From Eledone cirrhosa (Eukaryota): DNA of 64,000 bases. The stretch is from positions 38,192,001 through 38,256,000 of the forward strand of contig OZ024755.1 of assembly GCA_964016885.1 (NCBI GenBank). The letters run 5' to 3'. A program made the translations under genes and the position numbers. Under the pieces are notes generated by a model. The model searched no databases and was not told the DNA's origin. It worked only from the letters and a program-made list of their open reading frames with translations. Position 1 is the first letter of the stretch. Each line of letters starts with the position of its first letter. Positions 30,975-36,152 of the stretch are shown here, in pieces.

Positions 30975-31885
30975 ATCCTGGTGATGTGTTGTTCTTCAGC
31001 AAGACACTTTATTTCACATTGCTCCAGTCCACTGTGTCCTTCAGCAAGACACTTTATTTCATGTTGCTCCAGTCCACTGTGTCCTTCAGCAAGACACTTT
31101 ATTTCATGTTGCTCCAGTCCACTGTGTCCTTCAGCAAGACACTTTATTTCATGTTGCTCCAGTCCACTGTATCCTTCAGCAAGACACTTTATTTCATGTT
31201 GCTCCAGTCTACTGTGTCCTTCAGCAAGACACTTTATTTCATGTTGCTCCAGTCTACTGTGTCCTTCAGCAAGACACTTTATTTCATGTTGCTCCAGTCT
31301 ACTGTGTCCTTCAGCAAGACACTTTATTTCATGTTGCTCCAGTCCACTGTGTCCTTCAGCAAGACACTTTATTTCATGTTGCTCCAGTCCACTGTGTCCT
31401 TCAGCAAGACACTTTATTTCATGTTGCTCCAGTCCACTGTATCCTTCAGCAAGACACTTTATTTCATGTTGCTCCAGTCTACTGTGTCCTTCAGCAAGAC
31501 ACTTTATTTCATGTTGCTCCAGTCTACTGTGTCCTTCAGCAAGACACTTTATTTCATGTTGCTCCAGTCTACTGTGTCCTTCAGCAAGACACTTTATTTC
31601 ATGTTGCTCCAGTCTACTGTGTCCTTCAGCAAGACACTTTATTTCACATTGCTCCAGTCCACTGTGTCCTTCAGCAAGACACTTTATTTCATGTTGCTGC
31701 AGTCCACTCAGTTGTAGAAATAAGTTATGATGTCACCAGTGCCAGGCTGTATTGGCCATTGTCTTTCCATTGGATAACATGAGTGGCATGGAGAGGGCGG
31801 GGCTGGTGTGTATGGGTGACTGTTGGTCTTCCACGAAAACATCTTGCCGGTCTTGTGCTTCGGAGAAGTACTTTCTAGGTGAAAA
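30975..31885 (+). mobile_element. SINE whose 45-bp core segment is amplified 16 times (30991-31710)
   Basis: Unit tccttcagcaagacactttatttcatgttgctccagtccactgtg matches the SINE core at 42937-42980; the sequence resumes in SINE register after the array. Confidence 0.85.
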
Positions 31886-34261: not shown

Positions 34262-34850
34262 TAATAATTGTTTCTACTTTAGGCACAAGGACAGCAATTA
34301 CCCAGTACATTACTGGTACTTTATTTTATCAACCCTGTAAGGATGAAAGGCAAAGTTAACCTCGGCGGGACTTGAACTCAGATCGTAAAGGGACGTAACT
34401 ATGCTAGAAAGCATGGCGTCCAAAGTAATAATAATTATTATTATTACTCAGCTGTAGAAATGAGATGATAGGGACTGGGGTCCCTATCATTCCACTGCAA
34501 AGTGGTCGTGGAGGTGCCACGGCAAAAAAGCACCCAGCACTCACTGTAAATGAGGTTGGTGTTAGGAAGGGCATCCAGCTGTAGAAATCAAGCCAGAATC
34601 AGTTCCCGTCCCACCCTTGCAAGCAGGGAAAAATGGACGTAAAATGATGATGATGATGATGATGATATATATATATAATTGTTTCTACTTTTGGCACAAG
34701 GCCAGCAATTATCCTGAGATACTTTATTTTATTGACCCTGTAAGGATGAAAGGCAAAGTTAATCTCGGCAGGATTTGAACTCAGACCCTAAAGAGCCGTA
34801 ACTCTATGCTGCAAAGCATGGTGTCAGACCCTCTACCGATACTGCCAATC
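34262..34850. mobile_element. Cluster of three SINE copies
   Basis: Two minus-strand ggatgaaaggcaaagttaa-type copies flank a plus-strand truncated tRNA-SINE (34446-34665). Confidence 0.85.
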
Positions 34851-34994
34851 CACGTTGATGGACCCAGTACATTTATCAATGCCAGGACTGGTTGTATCTC
34901 AGCGTACTCCGAGGGCAATATAAGATACACTCCCAGAGTATACACATAGTTATTCACTTCAATACAACACACGTAAAACGGGTGCTTATAATAG

Positions 34995-35110
34995 TTCCTG
35001 GACTCGAGTTTTGGCTGCACTTTATGCAGCAGTAAGGGGAACTGCACCATCCGTCTGCATATATTATGCAACAATGCACAATCGGCTTGTGCAGCTTCAT
35101 CAGCGGGTAT
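34995..35110 (-). ncRNA. Degenerate type I hammerhead with long stem II (G12 changed to A)
   Basis: ACCCG-CUGAUGA-AGCUGCAC...GUGCAGCC-AAAA-CUCGAG-UC^CAGG. Confidence 0.7.
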
Positions 35111-35460
35111 CGGCTTGTGCAGCTTCATCAGCGGGTATCGGCTTGTGCACTTCACTTCATCAGCGGGTATCGGCTTGTGCAGCTTCATCAGCGAGTATCG
35201 GCTTGTGCAGCTTCATCAGCGGGTATCGGCTTGTGCACTTCACTTCATCAGCGGGTATCGGCTTGTGCAGCTTCATCAGCGAGTATCGGCTTGTGCAGCT
35301 TCATCAGCGGGTATCGGCTTGTGCACTTCACTTCATCAGCGGGTATCGGCTTGTGCAGCTTCATCAGCGGGTATCGGCTTGTGCAGCTTCATCAGCGGGT
35401 ATCGGCTTGTGCAGCTTCATCAGCGGGTATCGGCTTGTGCAGCTTCATCAGCGGGTATCG
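35081..35460. repeat. 28/32-bp minisatellite, 13 copies, made of the hammerhead 5' half
   Basis: tcatcag at 35097, 35125, 35157...35445. Confidence 0.95.
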
Positions 35461-35718
35461 CCTAATCAATAACCAATCGATCGACAGAATCCAAACCCCA
35501 GCCCATGCCGGTCATGATTGTTTGTGACAACCGACACGGTAAAGGGACTAGCAACTGGAACCCGATACAACTCTGTCCCCCAACCAGCCACCGATTTACA
35601 AACTTTACGTGGTGGCGGGAGAATAGAAAACCAATCTTTTCGTTCCCGTCAAAAGCCCTCAGCCAACGTGTCTTAATAAGAAGTGAAAGGATGGATATTA
35701 GAAATAGCAGTCCACATC

Positions 35719-35763
<45 letters not shown>

Positions 35764-35901
35764 TCCACCTGGCATCTTACTGCAAAGTAGGGTCTCCTTC
35801 TGATATTGCAACTTTTCCATTAAAATACATTAAAACCTCACAAACCAAAATGCAGAGAGCATCCAGAGTGATCTGCCGATCTTTACACATGTTTTCCTCG
35901 G

Positions 35902-36152
35902 AAGGAGACCTTACTTTTGGGATTGCCCTCGTATAAAATAACTGCACGAAATTTGCACTTGACGGTAGCGTTCAACGGGAGCTCCATTCTCAATGGCTGC
36001 CAAGCCAAGATTGAGCATCCCAGGGAAGCGCGCGCATGCTTGTTTGGGAGTGAAGGAAACACCAATCACAACAGTGTTGCCAACAGCCGTACGAACAGTT
36101 TCTCTGCGTCCCCATCGCTTTGGAGACCTTACTTTTGGGATTACCCTCGTAT
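35902..36152 (-). mobile_element. mariner 5' end interrupted at a TA by a second TIR of the same family
   Basis: TIR tacgagggtaatcccaaaagtaaggtctcc occurs twice; transposase-like start MELPLNATVKCKFRAVI. Confidence 0.8.

What the first reader, a model, noticed from the sequence alone, without database searches (positions are those of the whole stretch)
34995..35460. Minisatellite made of 13 copies of a hammerhead catalytic 5' half
Seen on the minus strand: each 28/32-bp unit is stem I 5' strand + CUGAUGA + stem II 5' strand (GCUGCAC). A single downstream 3' half supplies GUGCAGCC-AAAA-CUCGAG-UC. Three 32-bp variants give an 88-bp higher-order period. The G12-to-A change and the stem I mismatch sit at inferred CpGs, so this copy is probably dead in cis. 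Inference: a transcript would display many core strands able to pair with intact 3' halves of sister elements, a natural split or multivalent ribozyme arrangement.
Basis: partly seen in the sequence, partly recalled or inferred. Interest (0 to 1): 0.78.

Follow-up and report, generated by a model that had tools for sequence, protein, structure and literature searches.

The report
Minisatellite inside a dead hammerhead retrozyme
One decayed copy of a common jumping repeat, whose self-cutting RNA motif carries a mutation known to cripple such motifs, has had a 28-base piece covering half of that motif copied 13 times in a row, most likely by an ordinary one-off DNA slippage rather than to serve as a multi-part ribozyme.

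Summary
The predicted family motif GCCGAAACTCGAGTCCGGG exists (76 exact copies of a 22-mer containing it). The host is a 5'-truncated copy of an ~845-bp non-coding repeat with a fixed 3' end, (TA)n targets, head-to-tail partial tandems and a Penelope-type hammerhead: likely a non-autonomous Penelope-like element (non-LTR retrozyme). G12-to-A and the stem I mismatch are CpG decay, seen in sister copies too. The functional reading is unsupported. The array is a singleton in a 3-Gb genome. It sits between 6/7-nt direct repeats, the textbook minisatellite seed. It spread units with a broken helix II. It lies in a window with 11 such arrays. Chance predicts about one such array per family. A CTGATGA-containing array of the same size sits in an unrelated transposon. 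Predicted trans binding is micromolar. No RNA run was available. The scan noted other hammerhead retrozyme families in this genome, but not this one.

The parts
34854..35725 (-). 5'-truncated copy of an ~845-bp non-coding hammerhead-bearing repeat (Penelope-type non-autonomous element / non-LTR retrozyme); lacks about the first 300 bp of the monomer and about the last 10 bp
   Evidence: 29 differences from the family majority in 527 covered positions
35081..35460 (-). Minisatellite, 13 units (10 x 28 bp, 3 x 32 bp), 88-bp higher-order period; unit = stem I 5' strand + CUGAUGA + helix II 5' strand + spacer
   Evidence: unique in genome; junction pieces in short-read contigs
35457..35463 (-). 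Left seed repeat AGGCGAT (6 of 7 identical to the right seed, 28 bp apart in unamplified copies)
   Evidence: sequence
35081..35087 (-). Right seed repeat AGCCGAT, the form found at every internal junction
   Evidence: sequence
35089..35107 (-). Last (original) hammerhead 5' half: stem I strand CCCG, CUGAUGA, extra A, helix II strand GCUGCAC; carries two changes from the family majority (35093, 35089) shared by all 28-bp units
35021..35080 (-). Long loop II insert of the family hammerhead
34997..35020 (-). Single hammerhead 3' half: helix II strand, AAAA instead of GAAA (G12-to-A at 35012), 2-bp palindromic helix III, GUC site (C17 at 35001), stem I strand with mismatch at 34999
35723..35761 (.). 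(TA)n tract at the 5' junction of the element, the family's usual target
34680..34853 (-). Unrelated high-copy SINE-like repeat abutting the 3' end of the element (not part of the ribozyme; SINE label recalled, boundary approximate)
   Evidence: very high read depth

Best explanation
This is a single-locus minisatellite inside a decayed copy of a hammerhead-bearing repeat family, likely a non-autonomous Penelope-type retroelement, and it most likely arose by neutral slippage after the copy inserted and began to decay. Steps: (1) shown: an ~845-bp non-coding monomer with a type I hammerhead about 170 bp from its fixed 3' end is dispersed in the genome as 5'-truncated copies and head-to-tail partial tandems at (TA)n tracts; (2) inferred: it was moved by the RT/endonuclease of an unidentified Penelope-like partner, and its hammerhead, with a 2-bp palindromic helix III, would cut as a dimer; (3) shown: this copy accumulated CpG-type changes, among them G12-to-A and a stem I mismatch; (4) inferred: a 28-bp stretch bounded by two 6/7-identical 7-mers was duplicated by slippage or unequal exchange; (5) shown: amplification came after two private substitutions, since all 28-bp units share them; then a 32-bp variant and a point variant arose and were re-amplified as an 88-bp block. 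The unit covers the ribozyme's 5' half likely because the seed repeats happen to bracket it.
For: Singleton: a tandem pattern on the helix II side matched 6 of 6 times at this locus, and a pattern shared by all three subfamilies seen matched 8 of 8 times here. Tandem patterns at three other element positions, including the 3' half, matched 0 times. No TRF array (period >=10) was found inside 181 element pieces (79,673 bp) in 138 other loci. Background: 11 complex minisatellites in this 64-kb window and 11 in 479,660 bp of 60 other loci, several inside dispersed repeats. With 2,309 first-look candidates as copy number, 0.78 arrays covering this 19-nt stretch are expected at the 60-locus density and 5.8 at this window's density (rough). 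Natural control: a 31-bp x14 array containing CTGATGA lies in a terminal-inverted-repeat element with no hammerhead 3' half evident by eye in the following 400 bp (L068). The seed fits the 5-10 bp direct-repeat model, and 23% of human minisatellites derive from transposons (PMC3389668 passages). Decay is ordinary: G12-to-A in 11 of the first 100 listed of 338 CpG-degenerate 3' halves, and together with the same stem I change in 3 of those 100. 3 of 13 units have lost the base of helix II.
Against: The unit boundaries bracket exactly stem I strand + core + helix II strand. 10 of 13 units can still pair helix II with a family 3' half, 8 with a perfect stem I strand and 2 with a wobble. This copy's helix II changes keep or improve pairing (C-G to U-A, U.G to C-G), although both sides of the first are CpG-type. 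Arrays are not common in this family (0 in 79,673 bp against about 1.8 expected), so the chance estimate may be generous. The order of G12-to-A relative to amplification is not dated. No autonomous partner was found. Expression is untested.
Confidence: 0.9

Rival explanations
1. The array is transcribed and acts as a multivalent enzyme strand of a split hammerhead, pairing through stems I and II with 3' halves of sister elements (especially 5'-truncated ones) and cutting them in trans; two units could serve two substrates joined through the palindromic helix III.
For: 20 of 60 intact-3'-half copies lack their 5' half. A single unit co-folded with one such 3' half (L090) gives helix II P 0.96-1.0 and stem I P 0.55-0.71. 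Natural split hammerheads exist and trans action was proposed (PMC2920678 part 1 of 2). Penelope hammerheads are thought to work as dimers (PMC4209133).
Against: With two other partners (L075, L044) the hammerhead pairing is minor (stem I P 0.00-0.17). With the whole array RNA, over 8 of 8 partners tested: dG -6.8 to -8.4 kcal/mol (Kd about 1-15 micromolar), helix II P 0.00-0.18, helix III P <=0.005. Even intact Penelope minimal hammerheads cut weakly in vitro, and 1 of 9 retrozyme dimers cut in another study. The array is a singleton and includes broken units. The copy lacks the monomer's 5' third.
Confidence: 0.03
2. The array was made during retrotransposition, by repeated template jumping of the reverse transcriptase on a structured RNA, not by later genomic slippage.
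For: The family shows insertion-time rearrangements: inverted pieces and partial tandems (L028, L050) and 5' truncations clustered inside loop II.
Against: All 28-bp units share a CpG-type change and a second change absent from 29 of 29 close copies, which points to amplification after genomic decay. Units differ by only two variant events, while the flanks differ from the majority at 29 of 527 positions. No sister copy carries the array.
Confidence: 0.05
3. The array is largely an assembly artefact.
For: No listed contig spans the whole array, as expected for short-read contigs over a tandem repeat.
Against: Perfect junction-spanning contigs of 44-58 bp, one covering a 32-bp variant, in runs X1, X2 and X3 (one sample); ordered 88-bp higher-order structure.
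Confidence: 0.02

Closest known systems
Animal non-LTR retrozymes / non-autonomous Penelope-like elements (PMC7229834 passages; 10.64898/2026.07.22.740005 parts 1-3 of 5)
   Same: Non-coding monomer (reported range 51-972 bp) with one type I hammerhead, found as monomers and head-to-tail tandems.
   Different: Mostly 5'-truncated dispersed copies and 1.x-mers rather than long arrays in the loci seen; circular RNA and partner not shown. In retrozymes the whole monomer with a complete ribozyme is repeated; here the 28-bp array repeats half a ribozyme.
Hammerhead variants of Penelope-like elements (PMC4209133 parts 1-2 of 4)
   Same: Type I order, 4-bp helix I, 7-bp helix II, an extra nucleotide after A9, small palindromic helix III suited to dimers.
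   Different: Long (about 70 nt) loop II and an extra C or A before G12; this copy has G12-to-A; not found attached to an RT/GIY-YIG ORF.
Transposon-derived single-locus minisatellites seeded by short direct repeats (PMC3389668 passages)
   Same: One locus, unit taken from inside a dispersed repeat, bounded by a 7-nt near-identical direct repeat, later variant units re-amplified.
   Different: The unit happens to be a hammerhead 5' half; no such case appeared in the listings.
Split hammerheads of mammalian lectin mRNA 3' UTRs (PMC2920678 part 1 of 2) and two-strand I/II-format laboratory hammerheads (recalled, not from a call)
   Same: Enzyme and substrate segments separated; the strand split proposed here (core strand against GAAA/cleavage strand) is the I/II format.
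   Different: The lectin ribozymes are intact, lie in mRNAs and keep tertiary contacts; here no transcript, conservation or tertiary contact is shown.

Membership tests
Type I hammerhead (family copies) | Core CUGANGA ... GAAA ... UH in type I order | tested here: met
   Alignment A1, 67 rows; 76 exact 3' halves
Type I hammerhead (family copies) | Helices I, II, III pair, with covariation | tested here: met
   95.5% of 871 cells paired; G-C/A-U exchange in 13 of 67 rows at one helix II pair (essentially one subfamily event); slid controls 16-53%. Rows were picked with a pattern resembling the motif (67 of 103 matches aligned), so conservation is partly built in
Type I hammerhead (family copies) | Reaches Rfam Hammerhead_1 gathering score | tested here: not met
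   L002: 18 bits against 34, E 0.087, best hit, full-length alignment; long loop II. Array region: HH9 13.8 against 52
Type I hammerhead (this copy) | Invariant G12 general base | tested here: not met
   A at 35012
Type I hammerhead | Self-cleavage | not testable with these tools
   needs in vitro assay
Non-autonomous Penelope-like element / non-LTR retrozyme | Non-coding monomer with one hammerhead in head-to-tail tandems | tested here: met
   Period 840-845 bp; 21 of 30 loci picked by the monomer's 5' end have a 3' piece directly upstream and 23 of 30 hold a full monomer; longest frames in 4 copies about 100 aa or less
Non-autonomous Penelope-like element / non-LTR retrozyme | Fixed 3' end, 5' truncation, microsatellite target, inverted 5' pieces | tested here: met
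   53 of 60 central copies end at monomer position 847-850, starts vary; (TA)n junctions; inverted pieces in L028, L050
Non-autonomous Penelope-like element / non-LTR retrozyme | Homology to the pseudo-LTR of an autonomous RT/GIY-YIG element | tested here: inconclusive
   No linked ORF in 60 loci of 8 kb or 30 loci of 3 kb (one search's ORF list was cut); no genome-wide partner search run
Non-autonomous Penelope-like element / non-LTR retrozyme | Expressed as linear or circular RNA | not testable with these tools
   no RNA holder listed
Transposon-derived minisatellite | Tandem unit taken from inside a dispersed repeat, flanked by a 5-10 bp direct repeat, single locus | tested here: met
Natural split / trans-acting hammerhead | Conserved or recurrent arrangement | tested here: not met
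   single locus in this genome; orthologues in other species not available
Natural split / trans-acting hammerhead | Transcription and trans cleavage | not testable with these tools
   only folding estimates

The most novel reading that the evidence does not exclude
A slippage event accidentally built a natural multivalent enzyme strand: read-through RNA of the array pairs with the orphan 3' halves that a third of the sampled intact copies consist of, two units completing the palindromic double hammerhead, and cuts family-bearing transcripts in trans, a ribozyme-based brake on a retroelement family.
Probability: 0.03. Interest if true: 0.75.

Novelty: new member of a known kind. Interest (0 to 1): 0.17.

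Why it matters
As it most likely stands, little: it is a clean example of a transposon-derived minisatellite and adds one more hammerhead retrozyme family to a genome rich in them. It is also a caution that genome scans for ribozyme cores will pick up slippage products. If trans cleavage were real, it would be a natural multi-copy enzyme strand of a split hammerhead and a direct test of whether genomic hammerheads act in trans, a question left open for the lectin mRNA ribozymes. The in vitro test is cheap.

Tried and rejected
Rfam on the whole window returned mainly miRNA models on simple repeats among the 150 of 212 rows shown, and only sub-threshold hammerhead hits on the array. Sequencing-run search: no RNA holder listed; not used as evidence. 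Reads laid on 34600-36000 were swamped by neighbouring high-copy repeats; the RAD-seq runs X8 and X9 had no cover inside the array, which shows nothing. The one contig of organism B that skips 348 bp (X4) has the family-type letters, so it is read as a sister copy, not the pre-amplification orthologue. Pfam on 98 stop-free segments of the window: no hit at curated cut-off, 5 weak hits; short exons would be missed, so an intronic position is not excluded. The promoter scan is bacterial and uninformative. RT-like and GIY-YIG-like ORF pieces (labels by eye) near L073, L095, L102 and L107 were seen; L102 was read in full and is a separate neighbouring insertion, and the others are not contiguous with the monomer. 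Earlier scan notes by sequence, by place and by words returned nothing for this family. Supplements of the cited papers were not read; they may list this family's relatives. Tandem-pattern searches cover only periods of about 18-50 bp and exact degenerate matches.

Full report
Observation. On the minus strand, 35460-35081 holds 13 units, each with the stem I strand, CTGATGA and the helix II strand; ten are 28 bp and three are 32 bp, spaced to give an 88-bp period. One 3' half follows 60 bases later, with AAAA where hammerheads have GAAA and CAGG where stem I needs CGGG. Short-read contigs from one sample hold perfect junction-spanning pieces of 44-58 bp, so the array is real; none spans it whole.

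The host element. A search of the own genome (3.0 Gb) with the last unit and 3' half gave 2,309 first-look candidates, 40 scored, the 39 other places at 90-94% identity. The element is a monomer of 840-845 bp with no long reading frame in the four copies translated. Of 60 copies fetched from the 76, 53 end at the same 3' position, starts vary, and 40 reach the ribozyme's 5' half. Of 30 loci picked by the monomer's 5' end, 23 hold a full monomer and 21 have a 3' piece directly upstream, head to tail. Junctions lie in (TA)n tracts, and some copies have inverted pieces. A 91-nt GT-AG intron-like stretch opens the monomer in 26 of 30. Partial tandems, inverted 5' copies, microsatellite targets and 5' UTR introns are described for Penelope-like elements (10.1101/2021.04.23.441226, passages). 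Non-coding hammerhead monomers of 51-972 bp are described as non-LTR retrozymes derived from them (10.64898/2026.07.22.740005, parts 1-3 of 5; PMC7229834, passages). No autonomous partner was found in the loci examined. The genome looks octopus-like from its repeats; that label is recalled, not from a call.

The ribozyme. In 67 aligned copies (67 of 103 pattern matches) the three helices pair in 95.5% of cells, and one helix II pair switches G-C to A-U in 13 rows, essentially one subfamily. The 4-bp helix I, 7-bp helix II, extra base after A9 and tiny palindromic helix III match the Penelope hammerhead variants thought to work as dimers, which cut weakly in vitro (PMC4209133, parts 1-2 of 4). 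Rfam's type I model aligns full length but below its cut-off (18 against 34 bits). The window copy differs from the family majority at 29 of 527 positions, 8 of them CpG-type, including G12 (35012) and the stem I base (34999). G12-to-A slows hammerheads from more than 500-fold to about a million-fold (PMC2553840, passages). The same change is in 11 of the first 100 listed 3' halves, and in 3 of them together with the same stem I change. 'Dead in cis' is therefore likely and ordinary.

Origin of the array. In unamplified copies the unit is bounded by AGGCGAT and AGCCGAT, 28 bp apart; every internal junction has the second form. This is the short-direct-repeat seed described for transposon-derived minisatellites (PMC3389668, passages). 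All 28-bp units share two substitutions found in the window copy and not in the majority (35093, CpG-type; 35089, absent from 29 of 29), so amplification followed decay. A later TGAAG slip made the 32-bp unit, which separates the core from helix II, and it was copied three times.

Is the position more than chance? Two tandem patterns on the 5' half match only here (6 of 6; 8 of 8). Patterns at three other positions match nowhere, and 181 element pieces in 138 other loci contain no array (about 1.8 expected at background, which counts slightly against the estimate). Complex minisatellites are common: 11 in this window, 11 in 479,660 bp elsewhere, some plainly cut from other repeats. A rough count gives 0.78 expected arrays over this 19-nt stretch in the family at the lower density and 5.8 at this window's density. 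One of the 11 background arrays, 31 bp x14 in L068, also contains CTGATGA, inside a terminal-inverted-repeat element with no ribozyme context evident. A single hit on the 5' half needs no selection.

The trans idea. It is physically possible. 20 of 60 intact 3' halves have no 5' half of their own. One unit co-folds with one of three tested partners in the hammerhead register, and poorly with the other two. With the whole array RNA and eight partners, predicted binding is -6.8 to -8.4 kcal/mol, helix II forms with probability at most 0.18 and helix III at most 0.005; these models ignore the core's non-canonical pairs and dimer formation. Natural split hammerheads are known and trans action was suggested (PMC2920678, part 1 of 2). 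The copy lacks the monomer's first 300 bp or so, so any RNA would likely come from read-through (inference). Expression could not be tested. I found no report of an array of half-ribozymes in the listings of five searches.

Verdict. Correct observation, known kinds of parts: a neutral minisatellite in a dead retrozyme copy (0.9), with a small chance (0.03) of a working multivalent split ribozyme. Earlier scan notes describe other hammerhead retrozyme families in this genome, none this family or this array.

Noticed in passing
L068 (G000:C6:94246300-94254300), about 3030-3475 bases downstream of the hammerhead in element orientation: 31-bp x14 minisatellite containing CTGATGA inside a short element with terminal inverted repeats (hAT-like by recall); no hammerhead 3' half evident. 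Natural control for the finding.
   Followed up: partly
L097-L126, first ~130 bases of the monomer: 91-nt GT-AG intron-like stretch at the monomer's 5' end, signals intact in 26 of 30 copies, recalling the retained 5' introns of Penelope elements.
   Followed up: partly
Alignment A1, columns 16, 20, 96, 100: At least three subfamilies: helix II pair G-C or A-U; base before GAAA C or A, facing an invariant-looking extra A. A 1x1 extension at the core side of helix II whose effect on cleavage is untested.
   Followed up: partly
L037, L040, L059, L079, L083, L090, L091, L093, L095: 5' truncation hotspot at an ATATAT stretch inside loop II (9 of 60 loci have a piece starting at monomer position 627-632), making orphan 3' halves; suggests microhomology with the (TA)n target.
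   Followed up: partly
window 30990-31708; L044; L085: Other minisatellites cut from dispersed repeats (45 bp x16, 45 bp x6, 118 bp x8); the window unit occurs in 4 of 60 other loci.
   Followed up: partly
window 1-64000: Complex minisatellites are about 7.5 times denser here (11 in 64 kb) than in the 60 sampled loci; the window lies about 7 Mb from the end of a 45-Mb contig.
   Followed up: no
L024, L027, L043, L047, L052, L071, L075, L082, L112, L113, L126: Several other type I hammerhead-like motifs of unrelated repeat families were picked up by a generic descriptor.
   Followed up: no
L073, L095, L102, L107: Fragments of Penelope-like RT or GIY-YIG ORFs (by eye) within 1-3 kb of family copies, apparently separate insertions at shared (TA)n targets.
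   Followed up: partly
L014 and L019 (G000:C4, 27 kb apart): Two copies share about 800 bp of upstream flank: a local segmental duplication.
   Followed up: no
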